Below, one piece after another: positions 3,225-9,548 of a stretch of 11,459 nt of DNA. The notes beneath the pieces were generated by a model that worked only from the letters and a program-made list of their open reading frames with translations, ran no database searches and was not told where the DNA came from. Origin of the DNA: a virus; the UHGV virus genome UHGV-0179154; one strand, written 5' to 3'. The position numbers and the translations under genes are program-made. Position 1 is the stretch's first letter; every line of letters starts with the position of its first letter.

Positions 3225-3941
3225 ATGGAAAATAAAAAATCACTGACGACAGAACAGCTCGAAGACGCTAAGCGGCTTAAGGCTTTGTATGAGTCAAAAA
3301 AGAAAGAATTGGGAATAACCCAATACTCAATCGCTGATGAACTGGGTATCACCCAAGGAGCGGTAGGGCATTATCTTAATGGCAGAAACGCGCTAAACGT
3401 TGAGGTCGCATCTGGTTTTGCACGTTTGTTGCAAGTCTCAATTGCTGATTTTAGCCAGTCAATTGCTGCCAAGGTTGCAGAACAGGCAGAAAGCCTTAAG
3501 AGCGATGCCAACGTAAGGTATGCAGGGGAATACAGAGCAGGAAAGAGGTATCCGGTGTTAAGCAGTATCCAGGCTGGCTCGTGGTGTGAAGCATGCGAAC
3601 CATACACCATTAAAGACATAGATGTTTGGCTTGAGTCTGACGCGCATATTCAAGGCAATGCGTTCTGGCTTAAAGTGGAAGGTGATTCAATGACGGCACC
3701 GGTTGGGTTAAGCATTCCAGAGGGAACATTCGTTCTTTTCGATACCGGAAGGGAGGCGATCAACGGCAGCCTGGTCATAGCAAAACTTTCTGACTCTAAC
3801 GAAGCAACATTCAAGAAGCTGATAATCGACGGCGGAAATAAATACCTCAAGGGACTTAACCCTGCATGGCCTCTCGTGCCAATCAATGGAAACTGCAAGA
3901 TTATAGGCGTTGCAATTGAGACAAAACTAAGGCTGGTTTGA
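3225..3941 (+). CDS. cI: CI-like repressor (HTH N-domain plus LexA/S24-like autocleaving C-domain)
   Basis: 238 aa; N-terminus LTxEQLEDAKRLKALYE resembles lambda CI; candidate Ala-Gly cleavage site in SSIQAGSW; GDSM serine and FKKL lysine motifs present. Confidence 0.85.
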   Translation: MENKKSLTTEQLEDAKRLKALYESKKKELGITQYSIADELGITQGAVGHYLNGRNALNVEVASGFARLLQVSIADFSQSIAAKVAEQAESLKSDANVRYAGEYRAGKRYPVLSSIQAGSWCEACEPYTIKDIDVWLESDAHIQGNAFWLKVEGDSMTAPVGLSIPEGTFVLFDTGREAINGSLVIAKLSDSNEATFKKLIIDGGNKYLKGLNPAWPLVPINGNCKIIGVAIETKLRLV

Positions 3942-3960: not shown

Positions 3961-4329
3961 ATGGTTGGAACCGCTATAGCAAGCTTTTTTGGGATGTTGG
4001 CAATCTCAACAATTTACGGCTTAGCGCATGCTTTTATTGCGAAATCTCTATCAGAAAAAATAAGCCAGGCTTGGGCGCATAGATCAGCTCGTTTCATGAT
4101 TCTAGTGGTCATAGCAATACAAGGGATATCTGCATTTATCCTCTATGGATCAAGCTTATACCTGTTGTATCAAGGCGCGACATTTACGCCTTACACCAGT
4201 GATTACGGAACTCTATACGATGGTAGTGAAGACATCTCTATGGCTTGGATCGTCTTTGGTTTATCTATGGCCGTGTCTGTTGTAGCAGACATCATTAAGG
4301 TAATTCTCGTCTTAACCTTCGCTGACTAA
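3961..4329 (+). CDS. Small membrane protein with three predicted TM helices, co-transcribed with cI (rexAB position)
   Basis: GGGGGA 5 nt upstream of ATG at 3961, 19 nt after the cI stop; three hydrophobic stretches (aa 3-27, 45-70, 94-120); no recognisable family. Confidence 0.6.
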   Translation: MVGTAIASFFGMLAISTIYGLAHAFIAKSLSEKISQAWAHRSARFMILVVIAIQGISAFILYGSSLYLLYQGATFTPYTSDYGTLYDGSEDISMAWIVFGLSMAVSVVADIIKVILVLTFAD

Positions 4330-4433
4330 CCCATAATCCCGGCAGCAATAGCTATCGGGATCCACTTCACATATCCCGCATAAAAAGCACTGAACAAGCA
4401 GATACCGAAAAAATAAATATCCTTTGTATTCAT
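4326..4433 (-). CDS. Possible small hydrophobic peptide (35 aa), convergent with the membrane gene
   Basis: Hand-translated MNTKDIYFFGICLFSAFYAGYVKWIPIAIAAGIMG; no clear Shine-Dalgarno; may be a chance ORF. Confidence 0.15.
   Translation of the reverse strand: MNTKDIYFFGICLFSAFYAGYVKWIPIAIAAGIMG
4416..4430. promoter_or_regulatory. Possible OL3 (AATATCCTTTGTATT)
   Basis: One mismatch to AATAC-N5-GTATT; spaced 28 bp from OL2. Confidence 0.3.
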
Positions 4434-4458
4434 TTGTTTATCATTATTTCATCAAAAT

Positions 4459-4473
4459 AAATACCTTGGGTAT
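4459..4473. promoter_or_regulatory. OL2-like operator (AATACCTTGGGTATT)
   Basis: Perfect AATAC-N5-GTATT palindrome. Confidence 0.55.
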
Positions 4474-4500
4474 TTACACAATAAAATACCTACAGTATTC
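4472..4500 (+). promoter_or_regulatory. PL-like promoter
   Basis: -35 TTTACA (4472..4477), 17-nt spacer, -10 TATTCT (4495..4500); same TAG/CAG-TATTCT arrangement as the PR candidate. Confidence 0.45.
4484..4498. promoter_or_regulatory. OL1-like operator (AATACCTACAGTATT)
   Basis: Perfect AATAC-N5-GTATT palindrome overlapping the PL -10. Confidence 0.55.
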
Positions 4501-4547
4501 TTTAGCCATCAGCAGGACGCTGGAAGCCAAACGGAACAGATTGGCAG

Positions 4548-4587
4548 GCTCTTTAACATTGATGGGATTGTCCCGCCGAAATGCGGG
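4548..4587 (+). promoter_or_regulatory. nutL-like site (boxA GCTCTTTAACA plus boxB CCCGCCGAAATGCGGG)
   Basis: boxA 4548..4558 and boxB hairpin 4572..4587, about 40 nt downstream of the predicted PL start; boxB identical to nutR. Confidence 0.6.
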
Positions 4588-4899
4588 AACCAAAGAGTAG
4601 TTGGCTTAGGGGTGACGTGAAGTGCAGCTGCACGACGGCAACCGGAAGATAAGCACCCGGCGCGTCACCGCCAAAGTCAATTCCATAGGCGAAATGCAGC
4701 CGCCAAACACAGCCAATGCTGCACATGCAACAGGAGGATTTATGTGAATGCATAACTTCAAAACCGAGGTTAATTAAATCTCTCGATCCGAGCATCGACC
4801 TATTAGGTGGCGAGATGCTCTTTCTGCCCCTCAGTTCGAGGGGCCAGAAACCACTTTGCAATCACTATCAATTCCAAAGTTGTTTCATCGGAGGTCAAC

Positions 4900-5172
4900 A
4901 TGACAGTAGTCATTACATATCTGGCTGACGATAACGCCAGAAATCGCCGCAGAGCACGCAGACAGGCTAAACGTGAACAGGCAATGCAAGAGCAGCGACT
5001 GGCGCGAAAAATTGCGCTAAAGCTCTCTGGTTGCGTCAGAGCAGACAAAGCAGCATCACTCGGAAGCCTTCGCTGCAAAAAGGCAGAAGAATGCAGTGGA
5101 AGTATTTGCCTGCCAAACGTAGCCATTTACGCGGCAGGCTACCGGAAATCAAAACAACTGACGGCGAGGTAA
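4900..5172 (+). CDS. N: N-like transcription antiterminator (arginine-rich motif)
   Basis: GGAGG 5 nt upstream of ATG at 4900; N-terminal NARNRRRARRQAKREQA resembles the lambda N arginine-rich motif; first gene after PL/nutL. Confidence 0.65.
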   Translation: MTVVITYLADDNARNRRRARRQAKREQAMQEQRLARKIALKLSGCVRADKAASLGSLRCKKAEECSGSICLPNVAIYAAGYRKSKQLTAR

Positions 5173-5175
5173 GTG

Positions 5176-5400
5176 ATGAATCAGACATACATTCCATCAT
5201 GCTTGAGAAATCTGCCAAAGCAGAAAGCAAAGCCCCGCAAGCAAGCCATAAAGGACGCTAAGGCAGAGGTTATTGATCAAGCAATACAATTGCTCAGGGA
5301 GGAGTTAAGAAGTGGCAAGCTCGAAGGAATGATGATGCCCTATCAGCGCGGATATCTATCGGCGATTAGTAAGTTGGAAGTATTGAAGAGTGAATTATGA
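5176..5400 (+). CDS. Hypothetical protein (74 aa), translationally coupled to N
   Basis: GAGG 6 nt upstream of ATG at 5176, 3 nt after the N stop; no recognisable family. Confidence 0.5.
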   Translation: MNQTYIPSCLRNLPKQKAKPRKQAIKDAKAEVIDQAIQLLREELRSGKLEGMMMPYQRGYLSAISKLEVLKSEL

Positions 5401-5462
5401 ACTATCTGGAATTTCCGGATGGTTCATTGTTTTGGCAGCAAACCACTTATTTGAGGTGAGAT

Positions 5463-5933
5463 ATGACAATATCATGGAGCGTACCTTTTCCTGAATCAGA
5501 AACTGAACATGATGGAATGCCTGTTTTCTGGAGATTCCAGGCGACAGTTGAAGAAGATGGAATCAAAATATTCGCACTTCAATATATAGCTTTTCATCAG
5601 ACAGAGCATTATGCATGGTTGGTTCCTGCGCATTGGATTGTTAATTTTAAACCAGCACCAAATCAGTGGTTACAGGAATGGAAACAAAAGAGAAATAGAT
5701 ATGCAATTAAGAAAGTAGCAAAAAATGCAGAAAGATCTTTTGCATTCCCAACGAAGAAACTTGCCATTGAGAGTTTATTGCGCCGGAAGAAATACCATTT
5801 AATTAGAATCAAACAAGATTTGGCTGTTGTATCAACTCTTGTTGATGGGATGAAGAATATTGATACATCAACACCAGATATTGAATATAACTTTGGACAC
5901 AACCAAGAAACAGAAAATTGGGTATTCTACTAG
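5463..5933 (+). CDS. Hypothetical protein (156 aa) in AT-rich island
   Basis: GAGGTG upstream of ATG at 5463; followed directly by an intrinsic terminator; no recognisable motifs. Confidence 0.55.
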   Translation: MTISWSVPFPESETEHDGMPVFWRFQATVEEDGIKIFALQYIAFHQTEHYAWLVPAHWIVNFKPAPNQWLQEWKQKRNRYAIKKVAKNAERSFAFPTKKLAIESLLRRKKYHLIRIKQDLAVVSTLVDGMKNIDTSTPDIEYNFGHNQETENWVFY

Positions 5934-5957
5934 GCCGCATAGTCGGCCTTTATTTTT
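5932..5957 (+). terminator. Rho-independent terminator after the 156-aa ORF
   Basis: Stem AGGCCG/CGGCCT (5932..5937, 5944..5949), 6-nt loop, then TTTATTTTT. Confidence 0.6.
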
Positions 5958-5979
5958 GGCATAAACAACAGAGGCTAAC

Positions 5980-6276
5980 ATGGAATTTAAAGGTACTAAA
6001 GGTAAGTGGGAAATAATGATGGATGGCGATGAGATTAAAATCATCCAGGCAGACTCACTTGAAAATGGCGCAGGCTGGCGTTCGTATATTGCAATCTGTG
6101 AGGAAGTTCAATGTATTGAAGATGCCAATCTAATAGCGGCAGCACCTGACCTTCTCGAAGCACTTCAGTTATTACTTAAGCAATCCAAAAATAGAACAAC
6201 GACAACATATCCAGAATGGTATGGAGCTGTTAATAAAGGTCTTGCAGCAATCAGAAAAGCTCTTGGGGATAAGTAA
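5980..6276 (+). CDS. Hypothetical protein (98 aa)
   Basis: AGAGG upstream of ATG at 5980; stop overlaps the next start (TAATG). Confidence 0.5.
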   Translation: MEFKGTKGKWEIMMDGDEIKIIQADSLENGAGWRSYIAICEEVQCIEDANLIAAAPDLLEALQLLLKQSKNRTTTTYPEWYGAVNKGLAAIRKALGDK

Positions 6277-6464
6277 TGAAAGTAAAAATAACTGCTTCTA
6301 ATACCAGTTTTGTTAGTGTTGGTGATATTACAGAAGTAATAACAAACCATGATGGAACACAAGTTATGTGGTCTGATTTTTGTAAAAGATATGAGCGAGT
6401 TAGTTGGTGTAAAAACGTATGGGGAGTCGAATACGAAGAATTACCTGAAATGCATGACGAATAA
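6276..6464 (+). CDS. Hypothetical protein (62 aa), coupled to the upstream gene
   Basis: ATG overlaps the upstream TAA (TAATG); no recognisable family. Confidence 0.45.
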   Translation: MKVKITASNTSFVSVGDITEVITNHDGTQVMWSDFCKRYERVSWCKNVWGVEYEELPEMHDE

Positions 6465-6469
6465 GCGCT

Positions 6470-6497
6470 GTGTATTCATTACAACGAGTGAATACAC
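6470..6497. repeat. Perfect 9-bp inverted repeat GTGTATTCA-N10-TGAATACAC
   Basis: Arms at 6470..6478 and 6489..6497, immediately 3' of the 62-aa ORF stop. Confidence 0.5.
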
Positions 6498-6558
6498 GGA
6501 GCAATGTCGCTCGTAACCAAACAGGAGCCGACTTGTTCTGATTATTGGAAATCTTCTT

Positions 6559-6587
6559 TGCCCTCCAATGTGAGGGCAGTTTTTTTT
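6559..6587 (+). terminator. Rho-independent terminator
   Basis: Stem TGCCCTC/GAGGGCA (6559..6565, 6572..6578), 6-nt loop, then TTTTTTTT (6580..6587). Confidence 0.65.
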
Positions 6588-6600
6588 GACGGAGTAAACG

Positions 6601-6849
6601 ATGATAAAAACTGATTACCCTGCAGAGCTTAAACAAAAAGTAATAACAGCAATTAAATGCTCTTTTATCTCATGTCGTACAGATGAAGAACGATATGTCG
6701 TTGAGTGTGCAATTGTCGAGTTTCTCACAGCGATGGAATTTACCGCTGCAGAATCAATAGATGTATTAAAGCAATCAGACGGAAATGATATTGAAACGGA
6801 TGATGTTATTGACCGACTAATAAAATCATTCGAAGAAGAAATAGAGTAG
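6601..6849 (+). CDS. Hypothetical strongly acidic protein (82 aa)
   Basis: GGAG upstream of ATG at 6601; about 20 Asp/Glu versus 9 Lys/Arg by hand count, with acidic C-terminus DDVIDRLIKSFEEEIE. Confidence 0.5.
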   Translation: MIKTDYPAELKQKVITAIKCSFISCRTDEERYVVECAIVEFLTAMEFTAAESIDVLKQSDGNDIETDDVIDRLIKSFEEEIE

Positions 6850-6931
6850 CCGCCAAGCGCGGCTTTACCGCATACCAATAATGCTTCACGAGAGGCATTT
6901 TCGTTATGCAATCAAACAGAAGGAGTTACCC

Positions 6932-7066
6932 ATGATGCACTTTCAGCTCGCGGGTAGCGGCGTCATGTCCGCTTTCTACCCGCACGAATCTGAATTATCA
7001 CGCCGAGTTAAACAATTAATCAGAGCAGCAAAGAAACAACTGGAGGCGTTATGCGCAATGAAATAG
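6932..7066 (+). CDS. cIII: CIII-like protein (putative FtsH inhibitor, 44 aa)
   Basis: AAGGAG 6 nt upstream of ATG at 6932; MMHFQLAGSGVMSAFYPHESELSRRVKQLIRAAKKQL resembles the lambda CIII core as I recall it. The track start at 6881 has no Shine-Dalgarno. Confidence 0.5.
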   Translation: MMHFQLAGSGVMSAFYPHESELSRRVKQLIRAAKKQLEALCAMK

Positions 7067-7203
7067 CCATCAATCACCAGATACTTCGTGCAGCACAAAA
7101 CAAAGCAGTAATAGCCAGATTTATTGGTGATTCCAAAATGTGGCTTGAAGCAAATAAAGCGATGAAATCAGCTATCAACCTTCCGTGGTATCGCAGGAAA
7201 TGA
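7051..7203 (+). CDS. kil: Kil-like small protein (50 aa), tentative
   Basis: GGAGG 4 nt upstream of ATG at 7051; ARFIGDSKMW resembles the lambda Kil segment ATFIGDEKMF as I recall it; overlaps the cIII-like 3' end by 16 nt; sits just upstream of the recombination genes as in lambda. Confidence 0.4.
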   Translation: MRNEIAINHQILRAAQNKAVIARFIGDSKMWLEANKAMKSAINLPWYRRK

Positions 7204-7278
7204 GTTTTACAGATAACTGGTCAGACGAAGAATTCATTCGTCAGATGAAAGAATTAATCGGTAACGAAGGAGATATTC

Positions 7279-7449
7279 ATGTCACTTGCAACCACAGTGA
7301 AGGAGAGCAAGTTACAGAGACGCATGTACACGCAGAAAGCTCTCTGGTATCGCCATAATGGCGACCGCGAAGGAATGCGGGTATGCCTTAATTTGTCACG
7401 AGTCGAAGTATTAAATCAGCGTTATTTCCTTGGGCCGTGTCCATTCTGA
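7279..7449 (+). CDS. Hypothetical protein (56 aa)
   Basis: AAGGAG 6 nt upstream of ATG at 7279; hand-translated MSLATTVKESKLQRRMYTQKALWYRHNGDREGMRVCLNLSRVEVLNQRYFLGPCPF. An alternative 52-aa ORF (7200..7358) overlaps in another frame. Confidence 0.35.
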   Translation: MSLATTVKESKLQRRMYTQKALWYRHNGDREGMRVCLNLSRVEVLNQRYFLGPCPF

Positions 7450-7457
7450 GGTGAATT

Positions 7458-8165
7458 ATGGATTTGAACAAATTCGATGAGCCATTCAGCCCTGAAGATA
7501 TCGAATGGCGAATACAGCAAAGCGGTAAAACACGCGATGGCAAGGTGTGGGCTATGGTGCTGGCTTATGTCACGAACCGGGCAATCATGAAGCGCCTGGA
7601 CGATGTTTGCGGCAAAGCAGGATGGCGCAATGAATACCGCGATATTCCCAACAACGGCGGAGTTGAATGCGGCATATCAATCAAGATTGATTCCGAATGG
7701 GTAACCAAATGGGATGCTGCTGAAAACACGCAGGTAGAAGCCGTCAAAGGCGGTCGTTCCGGTGCAATGAAGCGCGCTGCCGTTCAGTGGGGAATCGGTC
7801 GGTATCTGTATAACCTTGAGGAAGGTTTTGCACAAACATCTCTCGATAAAAAGCAGGGATGGCACAGGGCAAAACTCAAGGATGGAACAGGATTTTACTG
7901 GCTCCCTCCATCGCTGCCGGGATGGGCAATCCCAGCATCAGATAACAAACCATCACCAGAAAATACCAACCAGAAATCTCCATCGGTTGACTGCGAACAA
8001 ATCCTGAAAGACTTCAGCGATTATGCGTCAACAGAAACTGACAAGAAAAAACTCATCGAGCGTTATCAGCGTGACTGGCAATTAATGGCTGGCAACGAGG
8101 AGGCGCAGGCTAAATGCGTTCAGGTAATGAACATCAGAGTTAACGAACTAAAACAGGCGGCATAA
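7458..8165 (+). CDS. Putative single-strand annealing recombinase, Rad52-like family
   Basis: 235 aa; GAGGTGA upstream; WGIGRYLY-type motif that I associate with phage Rad52-like annealing proteins; directly followed by ssb and an exonuclease. Confidence 0.5.
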   Translation: MDLNKFDEPFSPEDIEWRIQQSGKTRDGKVWAMVLAYVTNRAIMKRLDDVCGKAGWRNEYRDIPNNGGVECGISIKIDSEWVTKWDAAENTQVEAVKGGRSGAMKRAAVQWGIGRYLYNLEEGFAQTSLDKKQGWHRAKLKDGTGFYWLPPSLPGWAIPASDNKPSPENTNQKSPSVDCEQILKDFSDYASTETDKKKLIERYQRDWQLMAGNEEAQAKCVQVMNIRVNELKQAA

Positions 8166-8689: not shown

Positions 8690-9238
8690 ATGAATCACTT
8701 GATGGTTGACCTTGAAACAATGGGCAACGGGCCATACGCGCCAGTTATTTCTATTGGGGCGGTATTCTTTGACCCGAATACCGGAGAAACAGGAGAAGAG
8801 TTCTCGGTAAATATCTCGCTTGAATCATCAATGCGATATCGAGCGCGTCCTGACGCTTCAACGATTTTATGGTGGCTGGAACAGAGTGAAGAAGCCAGAA
8901 AATCGCTAACCAGCAACACTCAGGAGCTTTCAACGGCTCTTTCATGGTTATCTGAATTCATCATAAAGAACGCTAACCACAAATTCGTTCAGGTTTGGGG
9001 GAATGGAGCATCATTTGACTGCGTTATTCTCCGAAACAGTTATTCGCTGACAGGGCAGCCAGTTCCGTGGCAGTGGTGGAATGACCGCGACGTAAGAACA
9101 ATCGTCGAACTTGGGAAGGTAATAGGATTCGACCCTAAGCGAGATATGCCATTCAAAGGAACTCGCCACAACGCGCTTGATGATGCCATTCACCAAGCCA
9201 AATACGTTTCAGCGATCTGGAAAAAGTTAGCTAAATAA
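8690..9238 (+). CDS. DEDDh-type 3'-5' exonuclease (DnaQ-like fold)
   Basis: Exo I MVDLETMG, Exo II GASFDCVIL, Exo III HNALDDAIHQAKY; AAGGA 6 nt upstream of ATG at 8690. Confidence 0.7.
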   Translation: MNHLMVDLETMGNGPYAPVISIGAVFFDPNTGETGEEFSVNISLESSMRYRARPDASTILWWLEQSEEARKSLTSNTQELSTALSWLSEFIIKNANHKFVQVWGNGASFDCVILRNSYSLTGQPVPWQWWNDRDVRTIVELGKVIGFDPKRDMPFKGTRHNALDDAIHQAKYVSAIWKKLAK

Positions 9239-9254
9239 TCAACAGGAGAAAACC

Positions 9255-9548
9255 ATGCCAGCGCCTCTGTATGGTGCGGATGACGCGCGCCGCTGTTCCG
9301 GCAATTCCGTATCGGAGGTGCTGGATAAATTCAGAAAAAACTACGATCGGATAATGTCGCTACCGCAGGAAACGAAAGAGGAAAAGGAATTTCGCCATTG
9401 TATATGGCTTGCAGAGAAAGAAGAACTCGAGCGAATTTACCAGACATCAATCCGACCATTCCGCAAAGCCACATATACCCACTTCCCTGAAATTGACCCG
9501 CGCCTGCGTAATTACCGCTCACGCTATGGCGCTATCAGTAATGACTGA
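9255..9548 (+). CDS. Hypothetical protein (97 aa)
   Basis: AGGAG upstream of ATG at 9255; no recognisable family. Confidence 0.45.

What the first reader, a model, noticed from the sequence alone, without database searches (positions are those of the whole stretch)
5176..6849. AT-rich accessory island of five unknown genes between N and cIII
By eye this stretch is markedly more AT-rich than the flanking N and recombination genes, which suggests separate acquisition. It encodes five ORFs (74, 156, 98, 62 and 82 aa) with no recognisable motifs, all with plausible ribosome-binding sites and all in the PL direction. In lambda the corresponding interval holds ral and sieB, so this is the most likely place in the window for anti-defence or exclusion functions.
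Basis: partly seen in the sequence, partly recalled or inferred. Interest (0 to 1): 0.65.

Follow-up and report, generated by a model that had tools for sequence, protein, structure and literature searches.

The report
Swappable early genes around sRNA PreS
The AT-rich stretch is the well-known swap-shop part of a lambda-like prophage's early operon: five small, real but uncharacterised genes that are exchanged independently between phages, plus an overlooked copy of the known lambda small RNA PreS, so it is an ordinary region and its anti-defence role remains a reasonable guess.

Summary
Window 5176-6849 has 38.5% GC against 47.9% elsewhere, and it is the lowest-GC stretch of its length. All five + strand ORFs are real, conserved phage genes lying between N and cIII.

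It is not one island. At least five protein cassettes assort independently:
- o1 travels with N and has backbone-like composition.
- o2 is HK97 gp45 / 933W L0079.
- o3 belongs to Pfam Phage_P22_Y8K6 and matches ST104 orf18, which that record calls similar to P22 orf78.
- o4 and o5 are separate units.

It is 95% identical to lambda and corresponds to the published Hfq-dependent sRNA LPR1/PreS, whose 3' end is terminator tL2a. Its dnaN-pairing blocks are intact.

In 78 PreS-anchored loci I counted 40 marker-defined gene orders. Ral, Nmad5, Ea10 and P22 gp17 occupy the same slots.

None of the five proteins resembles Ral, SieB, any PADLOC family or any solved structure. The "anti-restriction" label on the o5 family has no support in the sequence comparisons made here.

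The region has no + strand promoter-like sites, carries several internal terminators, and all five proteins have homologues in phages of groups generally regarded as virulent. This points to N-dependent expression in the lytic cycle. A counter-defence role is plausible but unproven. The region is a known kind and of modest interest.

The parts
4473..4501 (+). PL-like sigma-70 promoter (TTTACA-17-TATTCT)
   Evidence: It is the only + strand promoter-like site between cI/orf122 and 7206. Its assignment as PL is inferred from position.
4548..4587 (+). Candidate nutL: boxA GCTCTTTAACA (4548-4558) and a boxB-like hairpin (4572-4587)
   Evidence: Read directly from the sequence and folded. A similar sequence lies in inverted orientation in the cro-cII region of L001 and L002. 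Function is inferred.
4900..5172 (+). Antiterminator N (90 aa)
   Evidence: Pfam N_peptide E 6e-15. Public gene calls give 90 aa.
5176..5400 (+). o1, 74 aa, basic (pI 9.7), phrog_5305. Co-inherited with this N type and backbone-like in composition.
5397..5427 (+). 14-bp hairpin overlapping the o1 stop codon, followed by a TTGTTTTGG tail (terminator-like; fold of 5390-5440 gives -21 kcal/mol)
5463..5933 (+). o2, 156 aa, phrog_1636. Equivalent to HK97 gp45, 933W L0079 and the H-19B ORF. The cassette spans about 5430/5441 to 5941/5953.
5932..5958 (+). Intrinsic terminator-like hairpin AGGCCG-loop-CGGCCT plus a T-rich tail, at the end of the o2 cassette
5980..6276 (+). o3, 98 aa, Pfam PF27050 Phage_P22_Y8K6 (PGAP name 'XkdD/Y8K6 family'); matches ST104 orf18, annotated as similar to P22 orf78
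6276..6464 (+). o4, 62 aa, acidic, phrog_10407. Its start overlaps the o3 stop (TAATG). Homologous to the C-terminal part of RB49p076.
6465..6502 (+). Conserved 13-bp hairpin at the 5' edge of the conserved block; nearly invariant in lambda, 933W, phi367, ECP1 and L007
   Evidence: Role unknown.
6498..6587 (+). Homologue of lambda sRNA LPR1/PreS. Its 3' end is the tL2a-type terminator (stem 6558-6579 plus T8). Putative seed blocks lie at 6534-6544 and 6549-6560.
   Evidence: The block is 95% identical to lambda 33925-34045 between ral and ea10. The paper (10.1101/2024.10.31.621285) places LPR1 there, with tL2a as its 3' end. The fold is the same as lambda's. Blocks of 12 and 11 nt are perfectly complementary to the dnaN leader. 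The 5' end is placed only by the published length of about 88 nt.
6601..6849 (+). o5, 82 aa, acidic (pI 4.3, net charge -11.5), phrog_14587. It occupies the ea10 / gp17 slot.
6848..6908 (+). Second conserved linker (85% identical to lambda between ea10 and cIII), with hairpins at 6848-6864 and 6880-6899
6932..7066 (+). cIII. The likely start is 6932 (44 aa), not 6881.
   Evidence: The Pfam cIII match covers residues 19-55 of the 61-aa ORF. Public gene calls give 44 aa. An AAGGAG motif precedes 6932.
7051..7203 (+). kil
   Evidence: Pfam Lambda_Kil E 1e-19.

Best explanation
The interval is the hypervariable accessory segment of the early-left (PL) operon of a mosaic lambdoid E. coli prophage. 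The window is essentially identical (99.97% over 4301-7500) to a contig of assembly GCA_904810065.1.

Layout. Transcription starts at a PL-like promoter (4473-4501), passes a nutL-like site and reads N. Only when N modifies RNA polymerase does it continue through three or four intrinsic terminators: after o1, after o2, at tL2a and after o5. The whole stretch should therefore be delayed-early and specific to the lytic cycle.

Content. It holds five small protein cassettes that are exchanged independently between phages at short conserved joints. It also holds one constant element, a homologue of lambda sRNA PreS (LPR1) ending in terminator tL2a. In lambda, PreS binds Hfq, pairs with the dnaA-dnaN mRNA, raises DnaN translation and so supports phage DNA replication.

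Slots. The slot just upstream of PreS holds o3-o4 here and ral in lambda. The slot just downstream holds o5 here, ea10 in lambda and gene 17 in P22-like phages.

Proteins. I take the five proteins to be dispensable factors made early in lytic growth that act on the host. Counter-defence is the leading sub-hypothesis. The acidic o5 is the best candidate for an inhibitor that binds a host nuclease or restriction complex.

Shown here: the composition, the gene reality, the cassette borders, the slot equivalence, and the PreS identity with its conserved pairing blocks.
Inferred: N-dependent, lytic-only expression.
Conjecture: any biochemical role for o1-o5.
For: Operon frame:
- N, cIII and kil are identified by Pfam.
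- The only + strand promoter-like site upstream is at 4473-4501, and there is none inside 4502-7205.
- boxA and boxB candidates are present.
- Terminator-like hairpins lie at 5397-5427, 5932-5949 and 6558-6579+T8, followed by hairpins at 6848-6864 and 6880-6899.

Mosaicism:
- Homology breaks fall at about 5441/5465, about 5941/5953, 6464 and 6585 in comparisons with twelve related loci.
- The five-gene order recurs with different immunity and replication modules, and subsets also occur.
- 78 PreS-anchored loci give 40 marker-defined architectures.
- The ORFs flanking PreS fall into 11 unrelated upstream clusters and 11 downstream clusters, two of the downstream ones being cIII itself.
- These clusters include Ral, Nmad5, DUF7446, Ea10, P22 GP17 and an HNH-AP2 protein.
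- Prevalence in complete E. coli genomes is 598, 195 and 58 of 5426.

PreS:
- 95% identity to lambda 33925-34045 between ral and ea10.
- Near-invariance across six phages.
- The published location, size, terminator, Hfq dependence, lytic-only expression and dnaN/alaS regulation.
- The same predicted fold as lambda's.
- Perfect complementarity of 12 nt and 11 nt to positions -47..-36 and -27..-17 of dnaN. Only 8 of 2000 shuffles reach a block of 11 nt or more.

Lytic-cycle role of the proteins. Homologues occur in phages of groups generally regarded as virulent (my knowledge, not tested here):
- o4 in RB49-like Krischvirus and in phage 9NA.
- o5 in siphophages of 45-48 kb, where it is the first gene of a divergent operon in Sa179lw.
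- o1 in several of the same phages, such as SeSz-2 and D10.
- o2 in Bas81.
- The N-terminal half of o3 in myophages of about 145 kb.

Purifying selection acts on o2.
Against: No expression data exist for this prophage. The promoter scan is a crude consensus search and would miss weak or non-sigma-70 promoters.

No protein has any detectable similarity to a characterised anti-defence or defence protein:
- Pfam, NCBIfam and PADLOC give nothing meaningful.
- PDB sequence and profile searches give nothing.
- The o3 model matches only uncharacterised viral proteins.
- The o2 model is too poor to use (pLDDT 54.5).

Guilt by position is weak. The same slots also hold genes with no known defence link: Ea10, a 322-aa coiled-coil protein and an HNH-AP2 protein that looks like a homing endonuclease.

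The 5' end of PreS is not mapped here, and the RNA is not in Rfam.
Confidence: 0.7

Rival explanations
1. The five proteins are early host-takeover or phage-physiology factors unrelated to host immunity. Examples would be modulators of replication, recombination, division or proteolysis, as with the neighbouring cIII, Kil and Ea10 and the sRNA PreS.
For: The characterised neighbours in the same operon (cIII, kil, erf, ssb, abc2) and PreS act on host physiology or DNA metabolism. o5 sits exactly in the ea10 slot. No similarity to any known anti-defence protein was found.
Against: The genes are dispensable and patchy, present in 1-11% of complete E. coli genomes. Unrelated genes replace one another in the same slot. 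That pattern is more typical of arms-race genes than of core physiology. Ral and P22 gene 17 are allelic occupants of the slots.
Confidence: 0.3
2. They are moron-type lysogenic-conversion genes, expressed from the prophage, that exclude superinfecting phages. This would resemble lambda sieB or the rex genes.
For: The DNA is AT-rich and the cassettes are bounded by terminators. Lambda and P22-like phages carry sieB in this interval. PGAP names a 'superinfection exclusion protein' in this interval in other E. coli prophages.
Against: No + strand promoter-like site lies inside the interval. All five genes run in the same direction as PL and are tightly packed, whereas sieB lies on the opposite strand. 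There are no PADLOC hits, and none of the five shows a hydrophobic composition (GRAVY -0.14 to -0.54). Every family has homologues in phages of groups generally regarded as virulent. In lambda the RNA through this spot is detected only in the lytic cycle.
Confidence: 0.12
3. Some of the ORFs are decaying or non-functional passengers, and the low GC is mutational drift rather than a sign of function.
For: o5 is almost confined to Escherichia at 91% identity or more in the word-indexed search. o1, o3, o4 and o5 show too few substitutions among the loci in hand for a selection test.
Against: All five are full-length and identical across many independent genomes. The families extend to other genera and phage types with conserved length: o2 down to 58% identity, o3 to about 42%, o5 to 31%, and o4 to 57-61% in T4-like phages. 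pN/pS for o2 is about 0.1.
Confidence: 0.05

Closest known systems
Phage lambda N-cIII interval (sieB, orf28, ral, LPR1/PreS-tL2a, ea10)
   Same: It has the same operon position and direction. It has the same conserved 121-nt PreS/tL2a block (95% identity) and a second linker before cIII (85%). Its internal terminators likewise imply N-dependent read-through.
   Different: Every protein gene differs. No window ORF resembles SieB, Orf28, Ral or Ea10. The window has no opposite-strand gene like sieB.
Lambda sRNA LPR1/PreS (bioRxiv 10.1101/2024.10.31.621285)
   Same: Location between the ral slot and the ea10 slot. A GC-rich hairpin plus poly-U 3' end. Sequence identity above the paper's own cut-off of 92%. 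An identical single-stranded region that pairs with the dnaN leader.
   Different: It differs from lambda at a handful of positions within the conserved block, lying in hairpin loops, in an unpaired stretch and at the base of the T-run. Expression, processing and Hfq binding have not been tested for this prophage.
HK97 gp45 / 933W L0079 / H-19B ORF downstream of N
   Same: o2 is 97-99% identical and sits in the same place, directly after N or after N-o1.
   Different: Nothing differs in sequence. These genes are themselves annotated only as hypothetical, and I found no paper on them.
P22-type early-left region (24, sieB, ral, orf78, 17, c3), as read from the ST104 record
   Same: o3 belongs to the Pfam family named after a P22 protein (Y8K6). 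Its ST104 relative orf18, annotated as similar to P22 orf78, lies in the same N-c3 interval. Gene 17 occupies the slot that o5 occupies here. The window also shares the erf and abc2 modules found in ST104.
   Different: o3 is only about 45% identical to ST104 orf18. The window lacks ral, sieB and gene 17.
Morons of lambdoid phages (the term for an extra gene with its own promoter and terminator; definition from my knowledge of the literature)
   Same: Atypical base composition, insertion between conserved genes, and a terminator at the downstream end.
   Different: No promoter of their own was detected, and the genes lie in the PL reading direction. They therefore look like operon-embedded cassettes rather than autonomous transcription units.
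Small acidic phage inhibitors such as T7 Ocr, T7 Gp5.9 and ArdA (recalled from the literature, not tested)
   Same: o5 is small, strongly acidic (20 D+E in 82 aa, pI 4.3) and is the first gene of an apparent early operon in phage Sa179lw.
   Different: There is no sequence similarity to any PDB chain. No structure model could be made for o5. The family has conserved Ala17, Cys25 and Glu40 and a hydrophobic IVEF core, which suggests a small folded helical domain rather than an extended DNA mimic.

Membership tests
Lambda sRNA LPR1/PreS | Lies in the PL operon between the ral position and the ea10 position | tested here: met
   The block at 6465-6585 aligns to lambda 33925-34045, which lies between ral and ea10. 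The paper places LPR1 there.
Lambda sRNA LPR1/PreS | At least 92% sequence identity to lambda LPR1 (the paper's own conservation criterion) | tested here: met
   95.0% over 121 nt. The region is nearly invariant across six phages.
Lambda sRNA LPR1/PreS | 3' end formed by the GC-rich hairpin plus poly-U of terminator tL2a | tested here: met
   Hairpin stem 6558-6579 followed by T8.
Lambda sRNA LPR1/PreS | Single-stranded seed complementary to the dnaA-dnaN mRNA just upstream of the dnaN start | tested here: met
   Perfect blocks of 12 nt (6549-6560) and 11 nt (6534-6544) pair with -47..-36 and -27..-17 of K-12 dnaN. Only 8 of 2000 shuffles reach 11 nt or more.
Lambda sRNA LPR1/PreS | Hfq binding, processing from about 88 nt to about 68 nt, and expression only in the lytic cycle | not testable with these tools
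   Shown for lambda only.
Ral (restriction alleviation) family | Sequence similarity to lambda or P22 Ral (Pfam and NCBIfam 'antirestriction Ral family') | tested here: not met
   No Pfam or NCBIfam hit for any of the five ORFs. blastp of o1-o5 against lambda Ral gave no hit up to E = 10.
Ral (restriction alleviation) family | Enhances modification by, or alleviates restriction by, type I R-M systems | not testable with these tools
   Needs plating assays.
PHROG 14587 'anti-restriction protein' (o5) | Match to the family profile | tested here: met
   E 2e-48 over the full length.
PHROG 14587 'anti-restriction protein' (o5) | Any sequence or experimental basis for the functional label | tested here: not met
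   The label appears on ECP1_057 as 'antirestriction protein ral' and on several 45-48 kb siphophage records. o5 has no similarity to Ral, NCBI calls the same protein 'hypothetical', and I found no paper. That the label spread from a positional annotation is my inference.
SieB superinfection exclusion | Membrane protein gene on the strand opposite to PL between N and ral, similar to lambda or P22 SieB | tested here: not met
   No significant similarity. Minus-strand ORFs in the interval have no PHROG hit.
Pfam PF27050 Phage_P22_Y8K6 (o3) | Significant match to the Pfam model | tested here: met
   The precomputed Pfam hit is on the exact protein and on about 110 of the 120 homologues listed. 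The model is absent from the local Pfam copy, so the score was not re-derived.
Moron (autonomous extra gene in a lambdoid genome) | Own promoter upstream and terminator downstream, allowing expression from the repressed prophage | tested here: inconclusive
   Terminators are present after o2, o4 and o5. No + strand promoter-like site lies in 4502-7205, but the scan is only a consensus match.
Moron (autonomous extra gene in a lambdoid genome) | Base composition different from the neighbouring genes | tested here: met
   GC3 is 0.21-0.29 against 0.37-0.55. This does not hold for o1.
Known anti-phage defence systems (PADLOC-DB) | Match to any defence-system protein model | tested here: not met
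   Only chance-level hits, E of 0.012 or higher and about 13 bits.

The most novel reading that the evidence does not exclude
One or more of the cassettes encodes a new family of counter-defence protein. The best candidate is o5. It is an 82-aa acidic protein whose family is shared by lambdoid prophages and 45-48 kb siphophages of Salmonella, E. coli and Klebsiella, and it sits in the slot that P22 gene 17 occupies. o4, which takes the place of ral directly upstream of PreS, is the second candidate. The fixed sRNA with its terminator would then serve as the recombination joint that lets phages swap such inhibitors.
Probability: 0.3. Interest if true: 0.6.

Novelty: new member of a known kind. 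Interest (0 to 1): 0.35.

Why it matters
The practical value is a corrected and sharper map of a region that genome annotation handles badly.

1. A functional sRNA, PreS, sits in what looks like an intergenic gap. Rfam has no model that detects it.
2. The "anti-restriction protein" label attached to the o5 family finds no support in any sequence comparison made here and should not be trusted.
3. PreS/tL2a gives a fixed anchor flanked by two hypervariable slots. This offers a simple way to harvest candidate early accessory genes from thousands of prophages.
4. o2 (HK97 gp45 / 933W L0079) is present in about 11% of complete E. coli genomes, including the major Shiga-toxin phages, and is still uncharacterised. 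It is a worthwhile experimental target.

If any cassette proves to be a counter-defence gene, it would add a new family. Nothing here overturns current understanding of lambdoid phage organisation.

Tried and rejected
Searches that gave nothing useful for o1-o5:
- Pfam, NCBIfam and PADLOC gave nothing above chance.
- Scanning every member of the o2 and o5 family alignments against Pfam gave only scattered single hits.
- PDB sequence searches with the single proteins and with profiles gave nothing significant.
- The weak o5 match to colicin E7 immunity protein (E 0.2-0.9) vanished when the family profile was used. I dropped it.

Structure prediction:
- The AlphaFold model of o2, built from a 19-sequence alignment, was poor (pLDDT 54.5). 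I did not use it for fold search.
- The o3 model (pLDDT 73.8) gave no PDB match. In BFVD it matched only uncharacterised viral proteins.

Rfam: no hit anywhere in the window.

Literature:
- Searches for L0079/933W, Y8K6 and HK97 gp45 found nothing relevant.
- I searched the supplements of the phage accessory-gene screen (PMC12373910) for the five N-termini and found none. Those files do not hold protein sequences at all, since Ocr and Ral were also absent. That negative result is therefore uninformative.

Ideas tested and dropped:
- That o3 and o4 form an obligate two-gene module. o3 is followed, always with an overlapping stop and start, by any of three unrelated small genes. Its C-terminal variant does not track the partner, and o4 also occurs without o3.
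- A global RNA duplex energy of PreS against the dnaN leader was no better than that of shuffled sequences. Only the exact-block test was informative.
- A suspected AP2-like motif in the basic middle of o2 found no support in Pfam.
Full report
**What the window is**

Pfam and PHROG assignments show a lambdoid immunity and early region. The genes, in order, are:
- A DnaB-type helicase, an O-like replication protein, cII and cro on the minus strand.
- cI on the plus strand (3225-3941).
- A 122-aa membrane protein in the rex position (3961-4329).
- N (4900-5172; Pfam N_peptide, E 6e-15).
- The five ORFs of the finding.
- cIII (Pfam E 4e-30) and kil (E 1e-19).
- An Erf/Rad52-type recombinase, SSB, a 3'-5' exonuclease and Abc2.
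- Ea22-like genes and the start of an excisionase-like gene.

Over 4301-7500 the window is 99.97% identical to a contig of E. coli assembly GCA_904810065.1, where the prophage lies next to lacY.

**Checking the observation**

- The stretch 5176-6849 is 38.5% GC against 47.9% for the rest. Of all windows of that length, the lowest-GC one starts at 5170.
- The signal lies at third codon positions. GC3 is 0.29, 0.29, 0.21 and 0.24 for o2-o5, against 0.37-0.55 for the flanking genes.
- Two parts are not AT-rich: o1 (GC 43.6%, GC3 0.49) and the 136-nt space between o4 and o5 (44.9%).
- All five ORFs have the stated sizes and are on the PL strand. Each has a Shine-Dalgarno-like purine-rich motif just upstream of its ATG.

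They are genes rather than chance ORFs:
- Each matches a PHROG family over its full length, with E-values of 4e-32 to 2e-110.
- Each is an exact match to proteins seen on tens to more than a thousand public contigs.
- Each family extends beyond E. coli.
- o2 shows pN/pS of about 0.1.
- ORFs on the other strand and in other frames have no PHROG match.

**It is not one island**

I ran blastn of window 4301-7500 against twelve related loci. Homology breaks fall at the same few places:
- N and o1 form one block, ending at about 5441-5465.
- The o2 cassette runs from about 5430/5441 to 5941/5953 and carries its own terminator-like hairpin (5932-5949 plus a T-rich tail).
- The o3-o4 segment is 5954-6464.
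- A conserved block follows at 6464/5-6583/5.
- The o5 cassette is about 6586-6848.
- A second linker (6848-6908) leads into cIII.

Individual prophages lack o2 (L010, L007), lack o3-o4 (phi367, ECP1, EC3), lack o5 (L009, L007) or lack o1 (L008, L009). The full five-gene order recurs next to different immunity and replication modules.

Prevalence in 5426 complete E. coli genomes differs about ten-fold:
- o2 in 598 genomes.
- o3-o4 in 195 genomes (60 full length).
- o5 in 58 genomes.

No complete E. coli genome and no phage record carries the whole set in one place.

o3 and o4 are also separable. Their stop and start overlap (TAATG). However, o3 is followed in the same overlapping way by any of three unrelated small genes. 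The C-terminal variant of o3 does not track the partner, and o4 occurs without o3.

**The overlooked element**

The conserved block between o4 and o5 is 95% identical to phage lambda itself, at lambda 33925-34045 between ral and ea10. It is nearly invariant across lambda, 933W, phi367, ECP1 and a further prophage.

A 2024 preprint (10.1101/2024.10.31.621285) describes exactly this spot. Its findings for lambda are:
- The sRNA LPR1, renamed PreS, lies between ea10 and ral.
- Its 3' end is the tL2a terminator of the early-left operon.
- It is about 88 nt long and is processed to about 68 nt.
- It is bound by Hfq and is made only in the lytic cycle.
- It raises dnaN translation by pairing with the dnaA-dnaN mRNA, and it represses alaS.
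- It is needed for full phage DNA replication and phage yield.
- BLAST found it in 2,537 genomes.

The window copy has these properties:
- Counting back 88-90 nt from the T8 run places it at about 6498-6587.
- It folds like the lambda RNA.
- It keeps two perfect complementary blocks to the E. coli K-12 dnaN leader. A 12-nt block (6549-6560) pairs with -47..-36, and an 11-nt block (6534-6544) pairs with -27..-17.
- Only 8 of 2000 shuffled sequences reach a block of 11 nt or more.
- Rfam has no model that detects it.

**Slots around PreS**

Using a 39-nt PreS core as an anchor, I fetched 120 further viral contigs. I then looked at the ORFs on each side.

The ORF ending just upstream falls into 11 unrelated clusters:

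| Upstream of PreS | Loci |
|---|---|
| Ral | 24 |
| o4 | 17 |
| o2 | 16 |
| Nmad5-domain protein | 11 |
| DUF7446 | 3 |
| Six further unknown clusters | 18 in all |

The ORF starting just downstream falls into 11 clusters, two of which are cIII itself:

| Downstream of PreS | Loci |
|---|---|
| Ea10 | 40 |
| cIII directly (empty slot) | 48 |
| o5 | 12 |
| 322-aa coiled-coil protein | 9 |
| P22 gene 17 product (Pfam GP17) | 4 |
| HNH-AP2 protein | 1 |
| Other unknown ORFs | 6 in all |

Among 78 loci with enough flank there are 40 marker-defined gene orders between N and cIII.

Positionally, o3-o4 stands where ral stands in lambda. o5 stands where ea10 stands in lambda and where gene 17 stands in P22-like phages. 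In ST104 the order is 24, sieB (opposite strand), ral, a pentapeptide-repeat gene, orf18, 17, c3. orf18 belongs to the o3 family and is annotated as similar to P22 orf78.

**What the proteins are**

- **o1** (74 aa, basic): phrog_5305. Homologues of 38-55% identity occur in Erwinia, Salmonella, Vibrio and Pseudomonas phages and in some of the siphophages that also carry o5 relatives.
- **o2** (156 aa): 97-99% identical to HK97 gp45, 933W L0079 and the H-19B ORF after N. The family is confined to Enterobacterales at 58% identity or more, with many invariant aromatic and basic residues. Its AlphaFold model is poor (pLDDT 54.5).
- **o3** (98 aa): carries Pfam PF27050 Phage_P22_Y8K6, which PGAP names 'XkdD/Y8K6 family'. 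The model shows a low-confidence beta hairpin and a confident helical hairpin. It has no PDB counterpart and matches only uncharacterised viral proteins in BFVD. The family is itself mosaic around an invariant LIAAAPDLLEALQ motif.
- **o4** (62 aa, acidic): 57-61% identical to the C-terminal part of a 119-aa protein of RB49-like T-even phages, with relatives in phage 9NA.
- **o5** (82 aa; pI 4.3; net charge -11.5): almost Escherichia-only in the indexed search. An exhaustive HMMER scan found 14 further cluster representatives of 72-100 aa at 31-50% identity. They occur in Klebsiella siphophages, Serratia and Pantoea and in Salmonella and E. coli siphophages. In Sa179lw the homologue is the first gene of a divergent operon. 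Ala17 and Cys25 are invariant in the family alignment, and Glu40 nearly so.

None of the five resembles lambda Ral, SieB, Orf28 or Ea10, any NCBIfam or PADLOC model, or any PDB chain.

**The 'anti-restriction' label**

PHROG 14587, the o5 family, is annotated 'anti-restriction protein'. The same wording appears on several siphophage records. ECP1_057 carries the product name 'antirestriction protein ral'. o5 has no similarity to Ral, and NCBI names the same protein 'hypothetical'. I infer that the label began as a positional annotation and then spread. It is not evidence of function.

**How it most likely works**

- The only + strand promoter-like site upstream is at 4473-4501. None lies inside 4502-7205.
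- A boxA (GCTCTTTAACA, 4548-4558) and a boxB-like hairpin (4572-4587) follow it.
- Terminator-like hairpins stand after o1 (5397-5427; a fold of 5390-5440 gives -21 kcal/mol), after o2, at tL2a and after o5.

The simplest reading is the lambda one. Without N, transcripts stop early. With N, polymerase reads through the whole row. The cassettes would then be delayed-early products of the lytic cycle, as was shown directly for the RNA at this spot in lambda.

All five families have homologues in phages of groups generally regarded as virulent, which argues against a role specific to lysogeny. Two characterised occupants of the same slots, Ral and P22 gene 17, help a phage overcome host restriction or a resident prophage's exclusion. 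That description rests on established knowledge and was not tested here.

I therefore favour early, dispensable, host-directed factors, with counter-defence as the leading sub-hypothesis. I put the chance that at least one of the five is a counter-defence protein at roughly 0.3-0.45. The main rival is host takeover unrelated to immunity (about 0.3). Exclusion expressed in the lysogen is less likely (about 0.12). Non-functional DNA is unlikely (about 0.05).

**Novelty and verdict**

- The mosaic N-cIII accessory region of lambdoid phages is long known.
- o2 and the o3 family have sat in HK97, 933W and P22-type genome records as unnamed ORFs.
- PreS is published.

The finding is therefore a correct observation of a known kind of region.

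What this analysis adds:
- The cassette map.
- Equivalence of the slots to ral and to ea10/gene 17.
- Exposure of a functional label that the sequence comparisons do not support.

The protein functions remain open and are testable with standard assays. Interest is modest.

Noticed in passing
window 3961-4329 (+): A 122-aa hydrophobic (GRAVY +0.96), probable membrane protein (phrog_6534, unknown function) lies directly after cI, in the position of lambda rexA/rexB and 933W stk. It is a better candidate for an exclusion gene expressed in the lysogen than anything in the AT-rich stretch.
   Followed up: no
window 7185-7358 and 7279-7449 (+): Two ORFs overlap by 80 nt in different frames between kil and erf. 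Each has a strong PHROG match (phrog_2123 at E 9e-42, phrog_1723 at E 9e-36), and both families are labelled 'recombinase'. Public gene calls pick one or the other for similar DNA.
   Followed up: partly
window 6465-6502 (+): A 13-bp hairpin (GTGTATTCAT...GAATACAC) lies at the 5' edge of the PreS block. It is conserved from lambda to this prophage and starts a few bases after whatever gene lies upstream. It could be a processing or stabilising structure, or the recombination joint itself.
   Followed up: partly
window 5980-6276; alignment A2: The o3 family is itself mosaic. Two unrelated N-terminal halves and several unrelated segments between LLEALQ and AAISKALGEE are combined around an invariant LIAAAPDLLEALQ motif. 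This suggests recombination inside the gene.
   Followed up: partly
L002 2768-3016 (ECP1_057); phrog_14587: The product name 'antirestriction protein ral' is attached to an o5 homologue that has no similarity to Ral. An 'anti-restriction protein' label also appears on the PHROG family and on several siphophage records.
   Followed up: yes
L137 1817-2461 (ST104 orf19): A pentapeptide-repeat protein sits between ral and the o3 homologue in phage ST104. Some proteins with this fold act as DNA mimics, so it is another candidate inhibitor in the same interval.
   Followed up: no
window 6881-7066: The longest cIII ORF is 61 aa. The Pfam match, the public gene calls and an AAGGAG motif point instead to a start at 6932 (44 aa).
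   Followed up: yes
window 9255-9548 and 8690-9238 (+): The same operon also encodes an Abc2 homologue (Pfam Anti-RecBCD_p2) and an Rv2179c-like 3'-5' exonuclease. The prophage therefore already carries one recognised anti-RecBCD function.
   Followed up: no
window 4816-4844 (+): A second boxA-like sequence (TGCTCTTTC) is followed by a 7-bp stem hairpin (GCCCCTC-AGTTC-GAGGGGC), about 55 nt upstream of the N start. This is in addition to the nutL candidate at 4548-4587.
   Followed up: no
L006 12010-12297: In the source assembly the prophage end lies next to a lacY-type permease gene, which suggests integration beside the lac region.
   Followed up: no
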